Source: Bacteroidia bacterium
Lineage (GTDB): Bacteria > Bacteroidota > Bacteroidia > J057 > JADKCL01
Assembly (NCBI GenBank): GCA_046329055.1
Contig: JAXLVK010000013.1
Coordinates: 17,959 to 81,958, forward strand
Direction of reading: 5' to 3'
Length of the DNA stretch: 64,000 bases
The position numbers and the translations under genes were made by a program. Below, piece by piece: positions 10,048 to 19,202 of the stretch (positions within the stretch are counted from its first letter, which is position 1; every line of letters begins with the position of its first letter). Under the pieces are notes generated by a model that searched no databases, was not told the origin of the DNA, and was given only the letters and a program-made list of their open reading frames with translations.

Positions 10048-10085
10048 AAGCGGGCTGCTCCTCTGGGGCGGCCCGCTTTGTTTTT
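10048..10085 (+). terminator. Rho-independent terminator after the 4475..10027 gene
   Basis: GC-rich hairpin AAGCGGGCTGC...GCGGCCCGCTT followed by TGTTTTT, about 20 nt after the stop codon. Confidence 0.6.
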
Positions 10086-10224
10086 AGGGATGGGAGTTAA
10101 GTTGTTGTTGGATAGATGAGGTGGCAGGAATAGGGCCGTTGGCTATTTGAGTGCCTATGGAGCCACTTTTCAAAACTAAACGTAGGACTGCATTCATTAT
10201 CGGTTTCGGCTGCGGGTACTCCGG

Positions 10225-11262
10225 CTAGCTTTTTCCTGCTTCTATTTCGGCAATCTTGTTCTCCGCCTTTCGCATGAAGTCATCCAGCGCCTCTGTGAAG
10301 TGCACAGAATTCTCCGGAATCTTGCCTACGCCGTATTTCTTTACCAACTGGTCCCGAAGTGCGGTCATGCCATGCTTGTTGTTCACATCGATGTATTGCA
10401 ATGGGCCAAGTAGCTGGCCTGAACCCACCCTGTCAAATGGAGGAATACAAATAGGGATCATGATCTTATCCAATACCCAAGCAGCACCCATTTCGGCGAT
10501 GCAGTACTGACTCTGCTTGAAATTCTCACTGATGAGCAGAATCACAAGGCCTGCATCCTTGATGGCCTGCTTGATGCGGTCACGGAAATTATCCCCTACG
10601 TCAATTGTTGTGGCAGGATGTGATGTATAGAACACCTGATCCATGGGTATCTCCAAACCATCTCGTAGGTAGTATTTCACGAAATGTGTGGCAAGGTCCT
10701 GATCCTTGGAAGCATGGCTGATAAAGATGCGCTTCTTGTTCGCGACCTCAACAATTTCCGGGCTTACAGGAGCCTTCCCTTTTGGAACTCGCTTGGTGAC
10801 TCCAGCTTTGGGTGAGCTATTCGATTCCTTTTCCTCCTTCAAGCTCGCTATGTACCTTGCTGTCTCGGGGCCATACTTCTTGGATCGGTGGGCACCCAGG
10901 ATGAAGCGATTGGAAACATTGTCCGCTGCTTGTTTAAGCAAATCTTCATCAAATCCGTAATAGCTTTCCATTAGCTCCGAAAGGATGATCTTGAACGGTT
11001 TCTCCTTGATCGAAGCCCATGTTTTGGCACCCACCATCTTTGCGACGACAGCATCAAACCGCTCCCGGTTTAGGAGATGGATTTCAGGGGTGTAGGCCAA
11101 AAAACTATGGCTCCTGCCATCGTGGTGCCAGGACCTTGACCCATTCAAGTACGCGACAGACAGGCGCAGGATATCTGCCATAGCTACATCAACAAGCAAC
11201 TGATTCGCCCGATTGCCACGGCGGTTGTTCAGCCGCAACAGTACAATATAGTTCTCTTCCAT
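10225..11262 (-). CDS. TIR-domain protein (unknown N-terminal domain plus C-terminal TIR)
   Basis: C-terminal half: KRIFISHASKDQDLATHFVKYYL...FYTSH...GLVILLISENFKQSQYCIAEMGAAWVL. This shows the bacterial TIR hallmarks: FISHxxxD, a LISxxFxxSxxCxxEhG glutamate motif. It starts 4 nt after the upstream Type IIG gene stop. Its GC is visibly lower than that of flanking genes. Confidence 0.75.
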   Translation of the reverse strand: MEENYIVLLRLNNRRGNRANQLLVDVAMADILRLSVAYLNGSRSWHHDGRSHSFLAYTPEIHLLNRERFDAVVAKMVGAKTWASIKEKPFKIILSELMESYYGFDEDLLKQAADNVSNRFILGAHRSKKYGPETARYIASLKEEKESNSSPKAGVTKRVPKGKAPVSPEIVEVANKKRIFISHASKDQDLATHFVKYYLRDGLEIPMDQVFYTSHPATTIDVGDNFRDRIKQAIKDAGLVILLISENFKQSQYCIAEMGAAWVLDKIMIPICIPPFDRVGSGQLLGPLQYIDVNNKHGMTALRDQLVKKYGVGKIPENSVHFTEALDDFMRKAENKIAEIEAGKS

Positions 11263-11266
11263 AGGA

Positions 11267-14200
11267 TTATTGACTTACACTCCCTTCCAATACTGCGATT
11301 TCCTCCGCAGTGAGGCCGTACAAGGCGTAAACAAGCTGATTGATTTCAGATTCCAGTTCGCTTGTTTCTGCCTGAGGTTGCTCGGACTTAATCACAATGA
11401 TCTTGTTGACGATCTTTTCAATTGCAGTTCTGTCAGTAAACAGATCGGGAAGCATAATGGGAAGTGTTTGTACGTACTGCGTGAAAAACCGCAGGTAACC
11501 CCCTCGCACGGAAGCTGAGATGCTTGCATAGTAGTTGGTAATGAGGTTGCTGTTGAGAATTCCCAGAATTACCAATGCAACGTCCTCGGGCACCGTGAAG
11601 AAGTAGGTGGTGTTTGCAGCAAAGAAACCCTCCCTGTCTAGGGAGAAATTTGTTTTGTAGGAGATATCAGGATAGAAAACCTTGACCTTCTCAAACTCCT
11701 TGTAGTAATCGCAGGCTCTCAATTCCCACCAATACTGCCCCTTGTCGCTGCGCTTCTTGGCTGCGGCCTCGTGCGGGGCGAGGTGCCTTGCAATAGCTGG
11801 GTAACGGTACTCCAGGTAGGTCCATGGCTCCAATTCATCAATCTTGTTCAGGGTGGTCCAGCCGTTGGGAATCAGGATCAGGTAATTTCCACTGTCATTG
11901 ACTCGCCAGCGCTTCACATCCCGCCCCGCCAAGAAGGGCTTGATGACCTCCGCACTGCGGGCATCCTCGGTGATGAGCCGGTCACGCCTCGCCCGATCGA
12001 TGACAAAGGCTTCATTCAGCCCTGTCTTGATGCCATAGTAGATCTTCCCACCCACATACTCGCCCAGCGGGACACCCTGCGCCTTGATCTTGGCGAGGAC
12101 GGCGGCGACATCCGCTTGCAACAGGGTCCAGCCATCTGACCCCAGCGTGTCCATGTCCACGGTGTAGGCAATGCTACTCACTAGGCTCCCCAAGTCATCA
12201 AAGTCCAGGTTCGGGATGCTTGCAGCCAACAGTTGCCCCTCACTCGCGGCATTGCGAATGCTGAGGATGCACGGATAGGTCGTTGCCTCATCGAAGACAG
12301 GGAGGTCGCCAAAGTCGATGATGCCCTGCAAATTCCACTGCCGGAGCCAGTCCCTGAGCAGCTCACCATAGCTCGCCCGCATCCACTTGTTGGGGATGAT
12401 GTAGCAAAACTCGCCCCCGCTGCGGCCCAGGCCCATCCCCAGCTCCACGAAATAGACGTAGAGGTCGGCACTGCTCACAAAGGTTTTGAAACGCTGGCCG
12501 AAATGCGCCTTGAACTCCTTGATCTCCTCCTGACGGATGTAGGGAGGGTTGGCGATCACCACATCAAACCCCACAAAATCTCCGTCCGCATTCAGCACCT
12601 CCGGAAACTCAAACCGCCACTCAAAGGCATCTCGGAAGATGGCGCTGTCCTCGATTTCCCGCTTCTCGGCGAGAGCCGACTCTAGATCCGCCTTGGCCCG
12701 GTCATGTTCTTGCTGCAACTTGGCTCCCACGGGCATGCCAAACTTGCGCAGGTTCAAAATGTCCTCCTCCTTGGTCGCAAGCAAGCCCCTGGCCTTGGCG
12801 ATGCGCTGCATCAGCGGCTTGTCGATGGTGTCGCGGAAGGCACCCTTGATGCGGTCGATCATGTCCAGGACCGTCCGCTTTTCGGTGCTGCCGCTTGCAT
12901 GGCGGTAGTCCTGCACGGCTTGGCGGTACTCCTCGATGCTGTGCCCGCTGTCCCGCAGGGCAGCGCTGAGGTCATCCTGCAAGCCAAACCGGCTGATCAG
13001 GCTGTTGCCCTGCTTGATGTTGATGTCGATGTTGGGGAGGGTCTCCAGCTCGGTGTAGCTGCTTTCCGAAGTGTAATAGGCATGCTTGAGCAACTCGATC
13101 CAGAGCCGTAGGCGGCATATCTTCACCGAGTTGGGGTTGATGTCCACTCCGAATAAGCAGCTCTCGATCAGGGTCTGCTTCTCATGAAAAAGGGCCTCCT
13201 GCAGGGCTTGGCGCTCCGTGATGGCCTGGCCGCTCTTGCCCAGGGTGTAGGCAAAGGGCTTGCCCTCCTCCACATCGAAGATGACCAGTTCGTCATTGGC
13301 TACCTGCAAGCTGTACTCCCTGACCCGCTTCCCGTCACGGTAGCACAGGATCCCCAGGTCTGCCTTGATGCAGAGCAGCTCATTCAGAGCAGACACAAGA
13401 AAATGCCCGGAGCCGACAGCCGGATCGCAGATGCGCATCCCGTTGATGAGGGCATTGTACTCCCGGCGCTTGTCCTTGTCCTCCTCGAGTTTGTCTTGCA
13501 AGCCCTCGAAGTCCTGTACCGCCCAGCCATATTGCGCGTTGAACCTGTTCACCACGGCGCGCCGGAGGGTCTCCCGGCACATGTACATGGTGATGAAGCC
13601 CGGGGTGAAGAAGCTGCCGTCACGGTATCCGTTGATCTTCTCGAAGATGAGGCCCAGCACCGAGGCATTGATGAGGGTCTTGTTCTCCTCCTGTATCTCC
13701 TCGCCTCCATCACTGCTGAAATCGTAGGCATCGAGGAAGCGCAACAGGTACTCCAGGGTATTGAGCTCCCCGCTGAGCCGCTTGCCGTTCGCCTCCTTCA
13801 GTACTGTACGGCTGTGGACAGGGAGCGTGATGTGGTTGTCGATCTCATTGATGCTGAATGCGGCTTGTTCCAATGCCGTCCGCTCAAACAAGGAGCTGTT
13901 CAGGTAGGGGACCAGCCTGTACCTGTCCCTGACACGGTCCTTGCGCTCGGAGGGTCGCCGGGCCAGCACCATGAAAAACAGGTTGTAGAGTTCGTCAAAG
14001 TCCCTTATGCTCCTATGGTTGAGGAACCTGTAGTCGGCATCCCCTCGGTGGTAGCTACGCAATTGCGCCTCCAGCAGCTTCAGGAACAGGATGCGGTTCA
14101 CCCAAGTGATGCAGAGTTCCAAACCCACCGCAAATGCCTGCTCAGTGGCGGTCTCTCCAAATGCACGGCGATTAGAAAGGTTTCCCAGCGTCCCCTCGAT

Positions 14201-15082
14201 GTCCAGCCGCTCGATGGCATTTTCCAGCAGGGAACCGTTCAGGCGCCGCCCCTCCTCCGCGCGACGGATCACCTTCTTGTTTTTGTCCTTGGCTTCTTCC
14301 AAGCCAATGATGTGCAGCAGCTCTGCATAAAAATCCTTGTTCAGGGAGTTGCTGTCAGTTGCAAAAGGCTCCTTGAGCAGGTGCGCGGGTGAGAGCAGCT
14401 TGTACAGCAGGCTCACCTTTTCGTCTCCCCTGGGGTCGGCACCCTGCAATGCCTTCCCGTAGCCGCGCAAGTCAATGTGGACGTAGGGCAGGTCCTCCTC
14501 ACTCCTCAGGAGAAATGGCTTGGCGACGTGGTCATAGAAGAACTGTGTCGTACTCCCGGACTTGCGGCCCTCCTTCCAGTCCGTGTAGTCCTTGCGGAGG
14601 CTTCCCTTGCTGAAAAATGCCCTGTCAAATGTGATGGCATCGAAGATGTACCAGTCCCAGCCATTGGTGATGACGAGGTGCCTCAAATCCTTGTTGCTGT
14701 CCTCGATGCGCTCCCTGAAGTAATAGAGCAGCAGTTCGCACATGCTCTTGGCGGTAAGGCTGCTTTCCGAAAACATCTCGGAGGCATTGTCAGGGTGCTT
14801 CATCTCCACCACTACCCCGACGGGCTCCTTGGAAGTCTTGCCGGTGTAGATGGCAAGGTCTATGTCCCCCTTGGCGTTCAGGTGATGGTTCTGCTTGTAA
14901 AATGCATCTCGGAGGAATGTGGCAAGGTTGTTCTTGTGCCCTTCTTCGGTTTCCTTTCCGCGCAAGCTGTCGATCAGCGTCCGCAGGTGTCCCTTGAAAT
15001 CCTCGATCGCCTCCCTGCTCGGCTTGAACTTGATGTATGCCTTGTTGAGTGCCTTGCGCGGAGGGATGGAAAGAGGCTTCAT
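11267..15082 (-). CDS. Type IIG restriction-modification enzyme (PD-(D/E)xK nuclease, gamma-class N6-adenine methyltransferase and TaqI_C-like specificity domain; Eco57I/MmeI-like architecture)
   Basis: N-terminal nuclease motif GDIDLAIY...VGVVVEMK. SAM motif I is ICDPAVGSGHFLVSALNEL. Catalytic motif IV is VVIANPPYIRQEE. The C-terminal target-recognition-like segment is GIKTGLNEAFVIDRARRDRL. The likely start is MKPLSIPP (M28 of ORF 11267..15163). Confidence 0.85.
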   Translation of the reverse strand: MKPLSIPPRKALNKAYIKFKPSREAIEDFKGHLRTLIDSLRGKETEEGHKNNLATFLRDAFYKQNHHLNAKGDIDLAIYTGKTSKEPVGVVVEMKHPDNASEMFSESSLTAKSMCELLLYYFRERIEDSNKDLRHLVITNGWDWYIFDAITFDRAFFSKGSLRKDYTDWKEGRKSGSTTQFFYDHVAKPFLLRSEEDLPYVHIDLRGYGKALQGADPRGDEKVSLLYKLLSPAHLLKEPFATDSNSLNKDFYAELLHIIGLEEAKDKNKKVIRRAEEGRRLNGSLLENAIERLDIEGTLGNLSNRRAFGETATEQAFAVGLELCITWVNRILFLKLLEAQLRSYHRGDADYRFLNHRSIRDFDELYNLFFMVLARRPSERKDRVRDRYRLVPYLNSSLFERTALEQAAFSINEIDNHITLPVHSRTVLKEANGKRLSGELNTLEYLLRFLDAYDFSSDGGEEIQEENKTLINASVLGLIFEKINGYRDGSFFTPGFITMYMCRETLRRAVVNRFNAQYGWAVQDFEGLQDKLEEDKDKRREYNALINGMRICDPAVGSGHFLVSALNELLCIKADLGILCYRDGKRVREYSLQVANDELVIFDVEEGKPFAYTLGKSGQAITERQALQEALFHEKQTLIESCLFGVDINPNSVKICRLRLWIELLKHAYYTSESSYTELETLPNIDINIKQGNSLISRFGLQDDLSAALRDSGHSIEEYRQAVQDYRHASGSTEKRTVLDMIDRIKGAFRDTIDKPLMQRIAKARGLLATKEEDILNLRKFGMPVGAKLQQEHDRAKADLESALAEKREIEDSAIFRDAFEWRFEFPEVLNADGDFVGFDVVIANPPYIRQEEIKEFKAHFGQRFKTFVSSADLYVYFVELGMGLGRSGGEFCYIIPNKWMRASYGELLRDWLRQWNLQGIIDFGDLPVFDEATTYPCILSIRNAASEGQLLAASIPNLDFDDLGSLVSSIAYTVDMDTLGSDGWTLLQADVAAVLAKIKAQGVPLGEYVGGKIYYGIKTGLNEAFVIDRARRDRLITEDARSAEVIKPFLAGRDVKRWRVNDSGNYLILIPNGWTTLNKIDELEPWTYLEYRYPAIARHLAPHEAAAKKRSDKGQYWWELRACDYYKEFEKVKVFYPDISYKTNFSLDREGFFAANTTYFFTVPEDVALVILGILNSNLITNYYASISASVRGGYLRFFTQYVQTLPIMLPDLFTDRTAIEKIVNKIIVIKSEQPQAETSELESEINQLVYALYGLTAEEIAVLEGSVSQ

Positions 15083-15386
15083 TTGGAGATCTACGATGAA
15101 CAGCGCGAATCTAACAAAAATCCGGTTGGTTGCCCCTGAAACCAGGAAGCCCCCACCGCTCACCGAGCAGCAGGGGCTTCCACAGTTGTTGATTCAAGAA
15201 ACAGTGCTGACCGGGCGCATCATGCAGCCGTGGGCAGCTTCAACGGATTTGTAGCAAGAGAGGTCGTTCGCCATCCAGTTTGTTTCATACCGGGGCGCCA
15301 TTCAATTGAGCGGAATGGGGCAGCGGCGGATGGCGAATCGGAAGAGCTTGCGTGTTACGCAAGTTTGTCAGATTGTCTGTGACTGC

Positions 15387-15932
15387 TTAGGCTGCGGTCT
15401 TGCCACCGTTGCCAGTGTCTTCACCAACAGTGACACCGTCCTCCTCGCTGTTCTCGGGGTACTGCTCCTCGGGGGTGACGCCAGTGTTTTTCTTGAAGTG
15501 GTCGCGGGCCTTTTCGTAGAGCCCTTCGAGCCCTGGCACGCCACTCACCCTCGCAATCTTCAAGCCCCGGTAGTAGTCGAGGCTCATCGTCATGGCGTCG
15601 TGCTTGGCCACGAAGAGGGCATTGTCAATCGACTCCACCAAGCTCATGAGCTTGATCTGCATCGCGACGAGGTTCCTCACGTTGCCGACGCGGGTGTAGT
15701 AGTCCACGACGTCATGCCATGCGGGCATCACCTTGGGGTGCGCCTGACAGATTTCGTGGATGTCACCGATGAACTGCATCTGCGGGTCACCCACCTTGAT
15801 GCAATAGGTCTTGTCCTTCTTGGTGACGTTGGGAAACTCGGGCAGGGCACCTTGCGCACTGCTGACGAGGTTGGCGATCACGTTCACGTGCGTGATGTTC
15901 ACGGGGTTGTTCAACCATGCTTTTTGTAACAT
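15387..15932 (-). CDS. Hypothetical protein (181 aa), no recognisable domain
   Basis: Clean ORF with ordinary amino-acid composition and an acidic C-terminal tail. A 7-bp hairpin (CTTGCGT-GTT-ACGCAAG, about 15347-15363) lies downstream. It sits in the lower-GC islet next to the RM/TIR operon. Confidence 0.5.
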   Translation of the reverse strand: MLQKAWLNNPVNITHVNVIANLVSSAQGALPEFPNVTKKDKTYCIKVGDPQMQFIGDIHEICQAHPKVMPAWHDVVDYYTRVGNVRNLVAMQIKLMSLVESIDNALFVAKHDAMTMSLDYYRGLKIARVSGVPGLEGLYEKARDHFKKNTGVTPEEQYPENSEEDGVTVGEDTGNGGKTAA

Positions 15933-16379: not shown

Positions 16380-16990
16380 AGGTTGCCATCGCCTCAACCC
16401 CACCATGGCCAAGTCACCCCATCATGGAGACCATTACCCCCAACTGAAGGCCACGCCACCCAATCATGAAGGCCATGGTCATCCCAGCACCAAGGCCACA
16501 GGCATCACCTCGCCAAAGCCATAGGCATCCCAGCGCCAAGGCCACAGGCATCCCTTTATGGAGGCTACGGCAACCCATCATGGAGACCATCATCATCCCC
16601 ACATGCAGGCGTGGTCACCACCATGAGGAGACAAGGTCACCCCCACATGGAGACCCATGCCATCATTACGTCGAGTTTCGGGCATCCTCACGTGGAGTCC
16701 CGGGCATCCTCACGTGGAGTTTCGGGCATCCTCACGTGGAGTCGCGGGCATCCTCACGTGGAGTCGTTGGCATCCTCACTTGGAGTCGCGGGCATCCCTA
16801 CGTGGAGACGATGGCATCCTCCCATGGAGGCGGTGGCACCCTATCGTGGAGCCGAAGGCATACCTCCATGGAGGCGGTGGCACCCTATCGTGGAGGCAAT
16901 GCTACCCCCATTTGGAGACCAAGGCATCTCTTGATGGAGGCCAGGGCATCCCCTCATGGAGCCGATGGCTACCCCCTACATTGGCTGGAA
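16380..16990. repeat. Degenerate 22-bp tandem repeat array (about 27 units)
   Basis: The unit is roughly GGCATCCTCACGTGGAGTCnCG. The best-conserved copies at about 16681, 16703 and 16725 show an exact 22-nt spacing. Older, diverged copies (...CATCATGGAGACCAT..., ...CCAAGGCCACAGGCATC...) extend from about 16380. The period is not a multiple of 3, and all three plus frames are open across it. Confidence 0.8.
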
Positions 16991-17292: not shown

Positions 17293-17580
17293 ATGAAACG
17301 TATCGCTATGCTATTCGCCATCCTGGCAGGGATGTGCTTGCCAGTGTCCGGATTTTCGGTCCATGCGGACCCCATCACCTCCGAGGTTTCGGAACTCCCA
17401 TGGAGCACTGTCTCAGCTGTGCTGAAAAAAGTCGTGGACATACGCCCGTACAGCTACGCCGAGCTCGTGGACTGGTACCAAGTGGGATTGGTGACGGTGG
17501 TGCAGAGTGGCAGTGGGTATCAGGTCTCCATCACGGATGCAGATGGCCTCACGGAGGTGCTTGTGATTAGCAACATTTAA
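17293..17580 (+). CDS. Small secreted hypothetical protein (95 aa)
   Basis: N-terminal signal peptide MKRIAMLFAILAGMCLPVSGFSVHA. No recognisable domain. Confidence 0.45.
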   Translation: MKRIAMLFAILAGMCLPVSGFSVHADPITSEVSELPWSTVSAVLKKVVDIRPYSYAELVDWYQVGLVTVVQSGSGYQVSITDADGLTEVLVISNI

Positions 17581-19202
17581 GAGTCCTCAGGGGACGAGGA
17601 TGCCCTGTCTCGGAAGATGTCCAGCATGGTGCATCCTCTCTCCCTGGACAGCACCCAAGCCTCCAAATCGAAATAGCCCGATAAGATAGTGCCATTCACT
17701 TGAGCGCTCAGTAGCTGCCGTAGCTCCGCGGGGAGAACCAATCGATGCCCAGCGGGCAGCGGCTCCATCAGCGTGGCGAGGTAGGCAAGGAAACGAAGTG
17801 CCTCAGAGGCCTTGGGGATTGCCTCCTCTTCCTCCTTTTGTCGCTTGTTCCGGTTGGTTACCAACCGTCTCACATCATCGTAGTCGCCCTCCTCAAATGC
17901 GTGGATGACCTCGGCAAGCCGATACATGACGTAATAGTCAGCGGTGAACTCCGCCTTGCGGTAGCCTGCCAGCAGCCTGATCACCTTGCGCCTGTGCCCC
18001 GGATCTTGCATGGCGATGGCACCTACTAGGCAGGCGTAGAGGCACTGGGTGATGAACTGACGGTCGAGCAGGGTGGATGACTGCTCCAGGAGTTGCAAGA
18101 ATCCAGCAATTGCCGCGGACGTGGCTTCAGGGTTGCCGGACTCCATCGCTATGCTGATGCTGTAAGGGTAGAGGAACCGGATGCGGTGACGCTCCACCTT
18201 GTGGTTCGAGAATCCTAGGCCCAGTATCCTCTGTGCCAGGGCATGGTAGCCCGGATGGTCGCCCGTGAGGTAGTGCGAGTTTGCAAGGTGCCCGAGTTCC
18301 TGAACCAAGGCTAGCCCCTCTATCTCGGAGATCCATGGGTAGGCCTCCAAATGTCCCACCAGTACCGCTTGCAACTCCAATGCTGCGGCGTGCTGCCGGG
18401 TATGTACCAGCACTGAGGCGCGCAGCTTGAGGTAATAGTAGATCGCGCGATGTGAATGAGCCGATTGCGGCCCGCTCAACAGCTCGTCATCGAGGAGGCG
18501 CCGCATCATCTCCTGCTTCTGACCGACATGCGCAATCCTACGCACCTCCTGATACACCCCCATGAGCTCCTCGTATTGGCGGAGGTTGTCCTCAAGGAAT
18601 CCCGCACGGGCTTGGCTCATGGTAGCAAAGGATGGCTCCGGCTCGATCTCCTTGGCCAGCCTCCACAGTCGCCCCGCAAAGTGAAATTCCTCAAAATCAG
18701 CCGCCCGCTCCATGGTCCGCTGGAACAGGTCCGTGGCTGCGTCCATGTCAGTGGCAGTGATGAGCGCGCGCAGCATGTCGTGGCTCTGCCCAAGTTGGCT
18801 GACAGTCCCGTCCCCTAACAGGAAGGTGGTCACTGCTTCCGCTATCAAGCCCATGTAGTGGAGGTACTTCCCGCGACCAATCTGGAGCTGCTCGATCACC
18901 TCCTCCTCGCTGAGGTCACCCGAGGCATGGATCACCTTGCACACTGGCACGAGGGAAATTCCTAGCCTACCCTCAGCCACCTGTGACAGGAATGCCTTGA
19001 GCCTTCCACCATGAAGGCTCCGCAAAATGCTTCTTGCTGTACTTGCTCTTAAATTCACATACGATCCTGATGAGACAAAATACTGAATACAAACAGGTTG
19101 CGATCCCAGTGTGGTGGTCGGCATCAAGTTACAAATTTGAATGGGTTTGTGCAGCATCCCATGCCCGAATAATTTGGCATTATCATCGAGGTAGAGACCC
19201 AC
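17577..19202 (-). CDS. Hypothetical all-helical (TPR-like?) protein; start uncertain
   Basis: 541-aa ORF, Leu/Ala/Glu/Arg-rich with helical-repeat character and no catalytic motif I can recognise. Several internal Met residues are possible true starts. Confidence 0.5.
   Translation of the reverse strand: MGLYLDDNAKLFGHGMLHKPIQICNLMPTTTLGSQPVCIQYFVSSGSYVNLRASTARSILRSLHGGRLKAFLSQVAEGRLGISLVPVCKVIHASGDLSEEEVIEQLQIGRGKYLHYMGLIAEAVTTFLLGDGTVSQLGQSHDMLRALITATDMDAATDLFQRTMERAADFEEFHFAGRLWRLAKEIEPEPSFATMSQARAGFLEDNLRQYEELMGVYQEVRRIAHVGQKQEMMRRLLDDELLSGPQSAHSHRAIYYYLKLRASVLVHTRQHAAALELQAVLVGHLEAYPWISEIEGLALVQELGHLANSHYLTGDHPGYHALAQRILGLGFSNHKVERHRIRFLYPYSISIAMESGNPEATSAAIAGFLQLLEQSSTLLDRQFITQCLYACLVGAIAMQDPGHRRKVIRLLAGYRKAEFTADYYVMYRLAEVIHAFEEGDYDDVRRLVTNRNKRQKEEEEAIPKASEALRFLAYLATLMEPLPAGHRLVLPAELRQLLSAQVNGTILSGYFDLEAWVLSRERGCTMLDIFRDRASSSPEDS

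What the first reader, a model, noticed from the sequence alone, without database searches (positions are those of the whole stretch)
10100..15932. Type IIG restriction-modification enzyme co-transcribed with a TIR-domain protein in a low-GC islet
**Seen in sequence.**
- A 1271-aa single-chain Type IIG enzyme (nuclease D..EMK, motif I DPAVGSGHF, motif IV NPPY, TaqI_C-like TRD) is followed after a 4-nt gap by a 345-aa protein.
- The C-terminal half of that second protein is a TIR domain with the conserved Glu (CIAEMG). Its N-terminal ~170 aa match nothing I recognise.
- The TIR gene in particular is visibly more AT-rich than the flanking T9SS genes.
- The islet runs from the terminator at ~10.05 kb to at least ~17 kb. 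It also contains an unknown 181-aa protein and a 22-bp satellite.

**Established knowledge.**
- Bacterial TIR domains act as NADases or signal generators in Thoeris, CBASS-like and other abortive-infection systems.
- No ThsA-like (SIR2 or Macro/SLOG) partner is present here.

**Inference.** A TIR effector translationally linked to an RM enzyme suggests a two-layer defence: restriction backed by NAD+ depletion. Alternatively the TIR protein could sense RM failure. I do not know this as a named system.
Basis: partly seen in the sequence, partly recalled or inferred. Interest (0 to 1): 0.65.

Follow-up and report, generated by a model that had tools for sequence, protein, structure and literature searches.

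The report
Restriction enzyme with attached TIR suicide gene
A single-chain restriction-modification enzyme gene is followed 4 bases later by a gene for a SpbK-like NAD-destroying 'suicide' protein with a nearly unique sensor domain. This looks like a compact two-layer anti-phage operon, a new variant of the known habit of lodging extra defence genes in restriction operons.

Summary
**Observation.** It is real. A 1271-aa Type IIG enzyme (11267..15082, minus strand) is followed after 4 nt by a 345-aa protein (10225..11262). The C-terminal half of that protein is a TIR domain.

**TIR protein.**
- The TIR domain's best match is SpbK, the portal-activated TIR NADase of Bacillus subtilis.
- The N-terminal ~145 aa occur in only three proteins among 1.8 billion representatives. 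All three lie just downstream of a single-chain restriction enzyme (Type IIG twice, Type ISP once).

**Wider pattern.**
- All four members of the closest Type IIG clade carry an abortive-infection gene in this slot. The gene differs: TIR twice, AbiC-like once, AIPR/AbiU-like once.
- The specificity-domain type and the cargo type shuffle independently.
- More distant SpbK-like TIR genes sit inside BREX-1 operons and a Type I RM operon. One close relative of a BREX-embedded TIR gene stands alone.

**Best reading (0.55).** This is a co-transcribed but mechanistically autonomous second-layer Abi gene lodged in a swappable slot behind the RM gene.

**Rival (0.2).** The restriction enzyme could guard or scaffold the TIR protein, as EcoprrI does for PrrC. 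This is not excluded.

**Correction.** "Low-GC islet" is only partly right. Only the TIR gene and the 3' end of the IIG gene are AT-rich.

**Novelty.** New variant of a known kind.

The parts
11267..15082 (-). Type IIG restriction-modification enzyme gene, 1271 aa. Nuclease domain (DUF7149) at 14354-15064, DUF7814 at 13670-14353, gamma-class N6-adenine MTase at 12293-13486, TaqI_C specificity domain at 11456-11941.
   Evidence: Pfam. PADLOC REase_MTase_IIG 2.8e-288. Motifs located. More than 8000 homologues at E<1e-100.
11263..11266 (-). 4-nt spacer (TCCT) between the IIG stop codon TAA and the TIR gene ATG. There is no room for a promoter or terminator.
   Evidence: The sister locus L094 has the same 4-nt spacing before a different Abi gene.
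10828..11262 (-). N-terminal domain of the TIR protein (aa 1-145), the presumed sensor. It is predicted to be mixed alpha/beta.
   Evidence: No family hit. An exhaustive HMMER search of 1.84e9 representatives returned only the window protein's own cluster, P0005 and a spurious repeat protein. 31% identical to P0002, whereas the TIR domain is 80% identical. AF2 model of moderate to low confidence. No Foldseek hit.
10735..10827 (-). Low-complexity Lys/Glu/Pro-rich linker (aa 146-176).
   Evidence: pLDDT 34-42. 14% identity to P0002.
10225..10734 (-). SpbK-like TIR (NADase) domain, aa 177-345, plus the stop codon. Catalytic Glu E257 is at 10492-10494. The alpha-C motif YCIAEMGAAW is at 10477-10506.
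   Evidence: TIR_2 1.4e-16. PADLOC spbK 8.3e-30. PDB 9phb SpbK 4e-11. Foldseek top hit 9phb_A. Residue roles from PMC12847820.
10048..10078 (.). GC-rich hairpin between the convergent T9SS-cargo gene (ends 10027) and the TIR gene (ends 10225). The T-run is on the + strand only.
   Evidence: 14-pair stem, 10 GC pairs. Sequence.
15083..15386 (-). 304-nt intergenic region upstream of the IIG gene, the presumed promoter region of the two-gene operon.
   Evidence: No consensus promoter was found, so this is an inference from layout.

Best explanation
**What it is.** A two-gene, two-layer anti-phage operon.

**Gene 1.** A complete single-chain Type IIG restriction-modification enzyme. It methylates its own sites and cuts unmodified incoming DNA.

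**Gene 2.** A stand-alone abortive-infection protein with SpbK-like architecture: N-terminal sensor, flexible linker, C-terminal TIR NADase.

**Proposed mechanism, by analogy with SpbK.**
- The TIR domains are inactive until the N-terminal domains are clustered by a multimeric phage-derived cue.
- Clustering lets the TIR domains form head-to-tail assemblies.
- NAD+ is then hydrolysed and the infected cell stops supporting phage growth.

**Relation between the genes.** The TIR gene is not mechanistically dependent on the restriction enzyme. It occupies a swappable cargo slot at the 3' end of the RM gene, which gives it a promoter, co-regulation and co-transfer. The pair then covers phages that escape restriction.

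**Shown:** gene structure, domains, catalytic motifs, conservation of the pair, and interchangeability of the cargo.

**Inferred:** co-transcription, NADase activity, activation by clustering, the nature of the trigger, and autonomy.
For: **One operon**
- 4-nt spacer on the same strand.
- DNA homology with L001 covers only the two genes, with different flanking genes.
- No other defence gene was found among 31 large ORFs of the window.

**Intact IIG enzyme**
- All domains and motifs are present.

**SpbK-like TIR**
- PADLOC spbK 8.3e-30, PDB SpbK 4e-11, Foldseek top hit the SpbK filament 9phb_A.
- SpbK residues Y188, E192, G194 and W197 correspond to Y253, E257, G259 and W262 here.
- SpbK has the same Ntd-linker-TIR layout and is activated when its Ntd is clustered on the portal (PMC12847820).

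**Sensor under arms-race pressure**
- Between the window and L001 the Ntd is 31% identical, against 80% for the TIR domain and 69% for the IIG core.
- P0003 has a 79%-identical TIR domain on an unrelated Ntd.

**Swappable slot and autonomy**
- The four closest IIG genes (core 67-86% identical) all carry an Abi gene immediately downstream: TIR (gaps of 4 and 127 nt), putAbiC-like (4 nt), AIPR/AbiU-like (17 nt).
- L001 and L094 have 86%-identical cores but different cargo.
- The window's specificity domain is closest (73%) to that of L095, which carries AIPR.
- The next relatives (56-60%) have no defence gene downstream.
- The L068 TIR protein is 49% identical, Ntd included, to the BREX-embedded L082 protein. 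It is a solitary gene between opposite-strand genes.
Against: - All three proteins that share this particular Ntd lie directly behind a single-chain restriction enzyme. Autonomy of this subfamily is therefore argued by analogy, not shown.
- The sample is tiny, and two of the three are the same IIG-TIR pair.
- SpbK N191, an interface residue, is Ala here.
- The Ntd has no recognisable fold and the model is of low confidence, so nothing is known about its ligand.
- No promoter or transcript evidence exists.
Confidence: 0.55

Rival explanations
1. **RM-coupled TIR (guard or scaffold).** The N-terminal domain binds the restriction enzyme. There are two versions.
- Guard: the enzyme keeps the TIR protein silent until a phage anti-restriction protein disables it, as PrrC is held by EcoprrI.
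- Scaffold: restriction enzymes that accumulate on unmodified phage DNA cluster the bound TIR proteins and switch on the NADase. The restriction enzyme would then act as the non-self sensor for an Abi effector.
For: - 3 of 3 proteins with this Ntd follow a single-chain restriction enzyme on the same strand, with gaps of 4, 127 and 10 nt, across two enzyme classes.
- More distant SpbK-like TIR genes sit inside BREX-1 (BrxB-BrxC-PglX-TIR-PglZ-BrxL in L082; BrxC-TIR-PglX in L070). One overlaps hsdM by 4 nt in a Type I operon (L054).
- SpbK-type TIRs are activated by clustering on a multimeric scaffold.
- The PrrC precedent is described in 10.1101/2024.01.29.577857.
- The variable block between the window and L001 is contiguous across the gene boundary: specificity domain 43%, IIG tail 35%, Ntd 31%.
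Against: - Cargo in the same slot is interchangeable among near-identical IIG cores (TIR, AbiC-like, AIPR-like).
- Specificity-domain type does not track cargo type.
- The Ntd diverges much faster (31%) than the IIG core (69%).
- The Ntds of the IIG-, BREX- and Type I-linked TIR proteins are unrelated to one another.
- A relative of the BREX-embedded form is solitary.
- Defence genes cluster anyway, so adjacency to RM is a weak argument on its own.
Confidence: 0.2
2. **Signal generator (Thoeris ThsB-like).** The TIR protein makes a cADPR-type messenger that activates an effector encoded elsewhere in the genome. It would not kill by NAD+ depletion itself.
For: - Weaker PADLOC hits to ThsB models (3.9e-10 and below).
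- SpbK itself produces N1-cADPR as well as ADPR (PMC12847820).
Against: - No SIR2, Macro or SLOG partner is present in the 64-kb window or in L001.
- The best model is spbK by 20 orders of magnitude.
- The pair moves as a two-gene unit.
Confidence: 0.08
3. **Coincidental neighbours.** The two defence genes happen to be adjacent, without shared transcription or any joint benefit, or the TIR gene is decaying cargo.
For: - The TIR gene's composition (GC3 0.58) differs from the IIG core (0.79), which suggests a separate origin.
- Defence genes commonly cluster.
Against: - 4-nt spacing.
- The ORF is intact, with all catalytic and interface residues.
- The pair is conserved at 53-64% protein identity in another context.
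- All four members of the IIG clade have the slot filled.
- There is no larger defence island around it.
Confidence: 0.07

Closest known systems
SpbK (Bacillus subtilis ICEBs1 single-gene TIR abortive-infection system; PDB 9phb; PMC12847820, PMC8880864)
   Same: - Same overall layout: N-terminal sensor, disordered linker, C-terminal TIR.
- The TIR domain is the best sequence and structure match.
- The catalytic Glu and the alpha-C interface Gly and Trp are conserved.
- It is carried as mobile cargo.
   Different: - The N-terminal domain is unrelated. SpbK has a 94-aa 4-helix bundle that binds the SPbeta portal; here it is ~145 aa, predicted alpha/beta, and the PADLOC match covers only profile positions 147-306.
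- N191 is Ala here.
- It lies in an operon behind a Type IIG enzyme instead of on an ICE.
- The host is probably Bacteroidota, judged from T9SS neighbours and IIG homologues.
PrrC / EcoprrI (anticodon nuclease embedded in a Type Ic RM operon and held latent by it)
   Same: - An abortive-infection effector gene sits inside or against a restriction operon and gives a second layer when restriction fails.
   Different: - The effector is a TIR NADase, not an ABC-ATPase anticodon nuclease.
- There is no evidence here of physical masking by the RM enzyme or of activation by an anti-restriction factor.
- Cargo in the slot is interchangeable.
'Embedded' defence systems in BREX, DISARM, Type I RM and Hma loci (Payne et al., bioRxiv 10.1101/2024.01.29.577857)
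   Same: - An extra defence gene is nested in the operon of a modification-based system.
- Relatives of this TIR gene are embedded in this sense in BREX-1 and Type I RM.
   Different: - The host system here is a single gene, so the cargo is appended rather than nested.
- Full-text searches combining TIR with Type IIG or Type ISP returned no paper describing such a pair.
Thoeris ThsB
   Same: - A bacterial TIR domain with the catalytic Glu. Weak model hits.
   Different: - No ThsA partner is present.
- There is a long N-terminal domain.
- It is closest to SpbK.
Eco57I/MmeI-type Type IIG enzymes (DUF7149-DUF7814 family, abundant in Bacteroidota)
   Same: - Full-length member, with nuclease, gamma-class N6A MTase and TaqI_C specificity domain in one chain.
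   Different: - Nothing unusual in the enzyme itself.
- Only this small clade carries an Abi gene at its 3' end.

Membership tests
Type IIG restriction-modification enzyme | Nuclease, N6-adenine methyltransferase and target-recognition domain in one polypeptide | tested here: met
   Pfam DUF7149, DUF7814, Eco57I and TaqI_C. PADLOC REase_MTase_IIG full length, 2.8e-288.
Type IIG restriction-modification enzyme | Catalytic motifs intact: PD-(D/E)xK-type D...ExK, motif I xPxxGxGxF, motif IV NPPY | tested here: met
   GDIDLAIY...VVVEMK, DPAVGSGHF and NPPY located.
Type IIG restriction-modification enzyme | Site-specific methylation and cleavage at a fixed distance from the site | not testable with these tools
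   Needs enzyme assays or methylome data.
SpbK-type single-protein TIR Abi | C-terminal TIR domain with the catalytic Glu | tested here: met
   TIR_2 1.4e-16. spbK model 8.3e-30. E257 aligns with SpbK E192.
SpbK-type single-protein TIR Abi | Alpha-C helix interface residues needed for filament formation (SpbK N191, G194, W197) | tested here: inconclusive
   G259 and W262 are conserved. N191 is replaced by A256.
SpbK-type single-protein TIR Abi | [quoted passage not shown] | tested here: not met
   The PADLOC match covers only profile positions 147-306. The Ntd is predicted to have five strands plus helices and has no homologue outside three proteins. It is therefore SpbK-like in mechanism, not an SpbK orthologue.
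SpbK-type single-protein TIR Abi | Works as a single gene; NADase activated by a phage protein | not testable with these tools
   There is only indirect support: a solitary relative of another RM-linked lineage.
Thoeris | ThsB TIR gene adjacent to a ThsA (SIR2, Macro or SLOG) effector gene | tested here: not met
   No such protein among 31 large ORFs of the window, nor in L001 or L002.
PrrC-like RM guard | Effector gene located within or against the RM operon | tested here: met
   4-nt spacing. Recurrent behind IIG and ISP enzymes.
PrrC-like RM guard | Effector bound and silenced by the RM enzyme, and released by an anti-restriction factor | not testable with these tools
   No co-folding or interaction tool was available. 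The comparative evidence leans against it.
Embedded defence genes (Payne et al. 2024) | Defence gene nested between the genes of a multi-gene modification-based system | tested here: inconclusive
   Here the host system is a single gene, so the cargo is appended. TIR-domain relatives are truly nested in BREX-1 (L082, L070) and Type I RM (L054).

The most novel reading that the evidence does not exclude
The restriction enzyme itself is the sensor. The TIR protein's N-terminal domain docks on the Type IIG or Type ISP enzyme. When several enzymes pile up on unmodified phage DNA, or are trapped by an anti-restriction protein, the docked TIR domains are brought together and start destroying NAD+. 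SpbK-like TIR genes lodged in BREX and Type I RM operons would be variations on the same principle. That would make 'restriction enzyme as pattern-recognition receptor for a TIR effector' a general and undescribed mode of coupling innate DNA discrimination to abortive infection.
Probability: 0.13. Interest if true: 0.8.

Novelty: new variant of a known kind. Interest (0 to 1): 0.45.

Why it matters
- **A clean test case.** This is a minimal pair (one restriction gene, one Abi gene, no surrounding island) for asking whether appended Abi genes act independently of restriction enzymes or through them.
- **A near-orphan sensor domain.** The N-terminal domain occurs in three proteins among 1.8 billion representatives and sits on a well-understood TIR NADase chassis. 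Finding its trigger would add a new phage-sensing specificity.
- **A possible discovery route.** The 3' end of this Type IIG clade behaves as a swappable Abi slot holding TIR, AbiC-like or AIPR-like genes. If that holds more widely, 'guilt by appending' could find new defence genes in Bacteroidota, where few systems have been tested.
- **Otherwise ordinary.** If the autonomous reading is right, this is one more instance of the known clustering and embedding of defence genes.

Tried and rejected
- **Insensitive first screen.** A tblastn screen of 88 loci with the window IIG and the L002 ISP protein suggested that distant TIR relatives almost never neighbour Eco57I-type MTases. Pfam and PADLOC on the upstream ORFs later showed PglX and HsdM neighbours, so that first conclusion was dropped.
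- **Ntd paired to the IIG specificity domain.** The idea arose because the divergent block spans both. It was rejected as evidence because the window's specificity domain is 73% identical to that of L095, which carries AIPR. Low GC3 in the specificity domain also occurs to some degree in all seven IIG genes compared.
- **Fold of the Ntd.** The full-length AF2 model has pLDDT 66 and the Ntd-only model 53. Foldseek gave no hit with E<0.5. Nothing was learned.
- **More Ntd homologues.**
  - The word-index profile search found only P0005.
  - The exhaustive HMMER search found the window protein's own cluster, P0005 and a spurious repeat protein, P0010.
  - The genome-contig scan found one unrelated locus and not even the source genome.
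  - The viral contigs gave two distant TIR-only hits.
- **L089 upstream ORF.** Its tail looked like the C-terminal helix of MTases. tblastn instead matched the N-terminus of a DUF262 protein. It cannot be interpreted on a 2-kb contig.
- **Mobility scars.** There are no flanking direct repeats, no tRNA in the window and no integrase nearby.
- **Promoters.** Neither a sigma-70 scan nor a Bacteroidota-type TTTG/TAnnTTTG pattern gave a usable site.
- **Other ORFs of the region.** The 181-aa, 541-aa and 95-aa ORFs have no family or PDB hits apart from a weak phrog_33448 match (E 1.2e-3) for the 181-aa ORF. Nothing ties them to the operon.
- **Literature.** Full-text searches combining TIR with Type IIG, Type ISP, BREX embedding or anti-restriction returned no paper describing this pair.

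Full report
**1. What is in the window**

Two back-to-back ORFs lie on the minus strand.

The first runs 11267..15082 from its likely ATG and encodes 1271 aa. That start fits the database copy P0011 and the homologue in L001. I queried it as 11267-15085, so amino-acid numbers from tool outputs are one too high.
- Pfam finds DUF7149 (nuclease region), DUF7814, the Eco57I methylase domain and a TaqI_C specificity domain.
- PADLOC's Type IIG model matches end to end at 2.8e-288.

The stop codon TAA is followed by 4 nt and then the ATG of a 345-aa ORF, 10225..11262.
- Residues 179-306 match TIR_2 at 1.4e-16.
- Residues 1-176 match nothing in Pfam, PADLOC, NCBIfam or PHROGs.

A strong hairpin at 10048-10078 separates this gene from the convergent T9SS-type cargo gene.

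**2. Composition**

The TIR gene is AT-rich for this genome. Its GC is 0.49 and GC3 0.58, against GC3 0.70-0.84 for most genes.

The IIG gene is not AT-rich over most of its length. GC3 is about 0.79 over the first 1050 codons, then falls to 0.68 and 0.48 over the last 170 codons. The 181-aa ORF upstream has GC3 0.82.

The 'low-GC islet' is therefore really the TIR gene plus the specificity-domain end of the IIG gene. The 3' drop is present, to varying degree, in all seven IIG genes I compared, whatever follows them. It probably reflects shuffling of specificity domains and is not a feature of this pair.

A PADLOC scan of 31 other large ORFs of the 64-kb window found only one unrelated 'caspase' hit, and no SIR2, Macro or SLOG protein. 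The two genes are thus an isolated pair and not part of a large defence island.

**3. What the TIR protein is**

- The best PADLOC model is spbK (8.3e-30), far ahead of the ThsB models. It covers only the C-terminal part, profile positions 147-306.
- The best PDB sequence hit is SpbK (9phb, 4e-11).
- The best Foldseek hit of the AF2 model is the SpbK TIR filament. The model has pLDDT 66.

SpbK has an N-terminal 4-helix bundle, a linker and a TIR domain. It is an NADase that makes ADPR and N1-cADPR. It is switched on when its N-terminal domains dock on the dodecameric SPbeta portal and so cluster the TIR domains. E192 lies in the modelled NAD+ site, and mutating N191, G194 or W197 abolishes filament formation, NADase activity and defence (PMC12847820).

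In the window protein, Y253, E257, G259 and W262 align with SpbK Y188, E192, G194 and W197. N191 is Ala.

The N-terminal domain is different. It is about 145 aa, is predicted to hold five strands plus helices at modest confidence, and has no fold match.

**4. How rare the N-terminal domain is, and where its relatives sit**

A search of 5.8 billion proteins gave nine hits.
- Only P0002 (53% identical, full length) and P0005 (47% over 64% of the query) share the N-terminal domain.
- A profile of the three N-terminal domains, run exhaustively against 1.84 billion representatives, returned only the window protein's own cluster, P0005 and a spurious repeat protein.

The contexts are as follows.
- P0002 lies 127 nt downstream of a Type IIG enzyme with the same architecture (64% identical) on contig L001. 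The flanking genes there are different, and no other gene on the contig has a defence-related Pfam hit.
- At DNA level, homology between the window and L001 covers just the two genes.
- P0005 lies 10 nt downstream of a Type ISP enzyme that is split into two ORFs. A PLD nuclease gene and an AIPR/AbiU gene follow it.
- P0003 has a TIR domain 79% identical to the window's on an unrelated N-terminal domain, and is followed by an AbiC-like gene. Its 2-kb contig does not reveal the upstream gene.

Between the window and L001, the N-terminal domain is 31% identical, the linker 14%, the TIR domain 80% and the IIG core 69%. This is the pattern expected of a fast-evolving sensor on a conserved effector.

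**5. The view from the restriction enzyme**

The IIG family is very large, with more than 8000 hits at E<1e-100, mostly from Bacteroidota. The two plasmid homologues whose surroundings I examined have no Abi gene in operon behind them.

The window's enzyme belongs to a small clade of four whose cores are 67-86% identical. All four have an abortive-infection-type gene immediately downstream on the same strand, but of three kinds:

| Locus | Downstream gene | Gap |
|---|---|---|
| window | TIR | 4 nt |
| L001 | TIR | 127 nt |
| L094 | membrane protein with a putAbiC domain | 4 nt |
| L095 | protein 54% identical to the AIPR/AbiU gene of L002 | 17 nt |

- L001 and L094 have 86%-identical cores yet different cargo and different specificity domains (42%).
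- The window's specificity domain is closest (73%) to that of L095, which carries AIPR.
- The next relatives (56-60% identical) are followed by outer-membrane, unannotated or regulatory genes.
- All cargo genes have lower GC3 than the IIG cores.

The 3' end of this IIG clade therefore behaves as a slot into which different single-gene Abi systems are exchanged.

**6. Distant SpbK-like TIR genes**

A metagenome scan gave 226 relatives, of which 80 loci were kept. All match only the TIR domain, at 27-43% identity.

My first tblastn screen suggested that these loci lack MTase neighbours. That screen was too insensitive. Pfam on 32 upstream neighbours found five Eco57I-type MTases, one HsdM, two GmrSD_N proteins, helicases, an OLD-family ATPase and a putAbiC protein.

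PADLOC then resolved several loci:
- L082 is BrxB-BrxC-PglX-TIR-PglZ-BrxL.
- L070 is BrxC-TIR-PglX.
- L054 is HsdM-TIR (4-nt overlap)-CBASS cyclase-4TM effector-HsdR.

These TIR proteins have N-terminal domains unrelated to the window's and to each other.

One result bears directly on autonomy. L068 encodes a protein 49% identical, N-terminal domain included, to the BREX-embedded L082 protein, and it is a solitary gene between opposite-strand genes. At least that lineage does not need its modification-system neighbour.

**7. Interpretation**

The most economical account has four parts.
- The window holds an intact Type IIG enzyme as the first layer.
- An autonomous SpbK-like TIR NADase with a novel sensor is the second layer.
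- The two are co-transcribed because the Abi gene has been lodged in a swappable slot behind the RM gene.
- This matches the published picture that defence genes are often embedded in BREX, DISARM and Type I RM operons for linked transfer, co-regulation or backup (bioRxiv 10.1101/2024.01.29.577857).

I put this at 0.55.

The main rival, at 0.2, is real coupling. Either the restriction enzyme silences the TIR protein until it is inhibited (PrrC-like), or enzymes gathering on foreign DNA cluster the TIR domains.
- In its favour: all three carriers of this N-terminal domain follow a restriction enzyme, and SpbK-type TIRs are activated by clustering.
- Against it: the interchangeability of cargo, the independence of specificity domain and cargo, the fast divergence of the N-terminal domain, and the solitary relative.

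A Thoeris-like signalling role (0.08) lacks any partner gene. Mere coincidence (0.07) is hard to square with the 4-nt spacing and the conserved pair.

**8. Comparison and novelty**

- The IIG enzyme is an ordinary member of a large family.
- The TIR protein works like SpbK on present evidence but is not an SpbK orthologue, because the defining portal-binding domain is absent.
- The arrangement resembles PrrC/EcoprrI in layout only.
- Full-text searches combining TIR with Type IIG, Type ISP, BREX embedding or anti-restriction returned no paper describing such a pair.

I rate it a new variant of a known kind, of moderate interest. The useful points are a near-orphan sensor domain, a minimal two-gene test case for autonomy versus coupling, and a small IIG clade with a swappable Abi slot.

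**9. Limits**

- The N-terminal-domain family has three members, two of which are the same kind of pair.
- Most contigs are short.
- No transcript, activity or interaction data exist.
- The neighbour survey has no formal null model.
- The organism was not identified, and the source genome is not in the genome collection searched.

Noticed in passing
window 16469-16975: Tandem array of 22-23-bp units, about 23 copies in several sub-arrays, 64-85% matches. The core motif CAYRTGGAGNC occurs only here in the window. The ORFs across it are repeat artefacts. No Rfam family matches in 9.5-20 kb.
   Followed up: partly
window 15387-15932 (-): 181-aa ORF with host-like GC3 (0.82), separated from the IIG start by 304 nt. 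Its only hit is a weak one to phrog_33448, of unknown function (E 1.2e-3). Nothing ties it to the operon.
   Followed up: partly
window 17577-19202 (-) and 17293-17580 (+): A 541-aa ORF and a 95-aa ORF, the latter with a signal-peptide-like start. Neither has a hit in Pfam, PADLOC, NCBIfam or PHROGs, and the 541-aa ORF has none in the PDB sequences either.
   Followed up: partly
window, one of 31 large ORFs outside 10-15 kb: A single PADLOC 'caspase' (PDLC02987) hit at 6.6e-13.
   Followed up: no
L082 43-13411: Human-gut BREX-1 operon with a TIR gene (351 aa: helical N-terminal domain, TIR, C-terminal Cys4 zinc ribbon) inserted between pglX and pglZ, with gaps of 15 and 12 nt. Four related loci (L072, L078, L085, L088) also show PglX followed by TIR.
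   Followed up: partly
L054 1127-10362: Type I RM operon interrupted after hsdM by a TIR gene (4-nt overlap) and a CBASS cyclase plus 4TM effector, before hsdR. This is a small defence island nested in an RM operon.
   Followed up: partly
L002 2-4401: The Type ISP enzyme upstream of the TIR gene P0005 is split into two ORFs that overlap by 4 nt: ResIII/DEAD, then Helicase_C-coupler-MTase-Type_ISP_C. This could be a frameshift, an assembly error or a genuinely split enzyme.
   Followed up: no
window 11267-11930, and the 3' ends of the IIG genes in L001, L092-L096: In all seven IIG genes compared, the last ~220 codons (specificity domain plus tail) have lower GC3 than the core, for example 0.61 against 0.79 in the window. 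They are also far more divergent (35-73% against 56-86%). This is consistent with horizontal exchange of specificity domains.
   Followed up: partly
L090 (Priestia megaterium plasmid NZ_CP085436.1, 14098-25166): A homologue of the IIG enzyme lies a few kb from a cluster of three TIR-domain genes and a macro-domain gene, which looks Thoeris-like. It is the same theme at island scale, not in operon.
   Followed up: no
L003-L005: The distant TIR relative P0006 sits on contigs that carry Rep3 and ParA genes. On L003 there are also a terminase fragment and a VapE-like primase, which suggests a plasmid or phage-plasmid.
   Followed up: no
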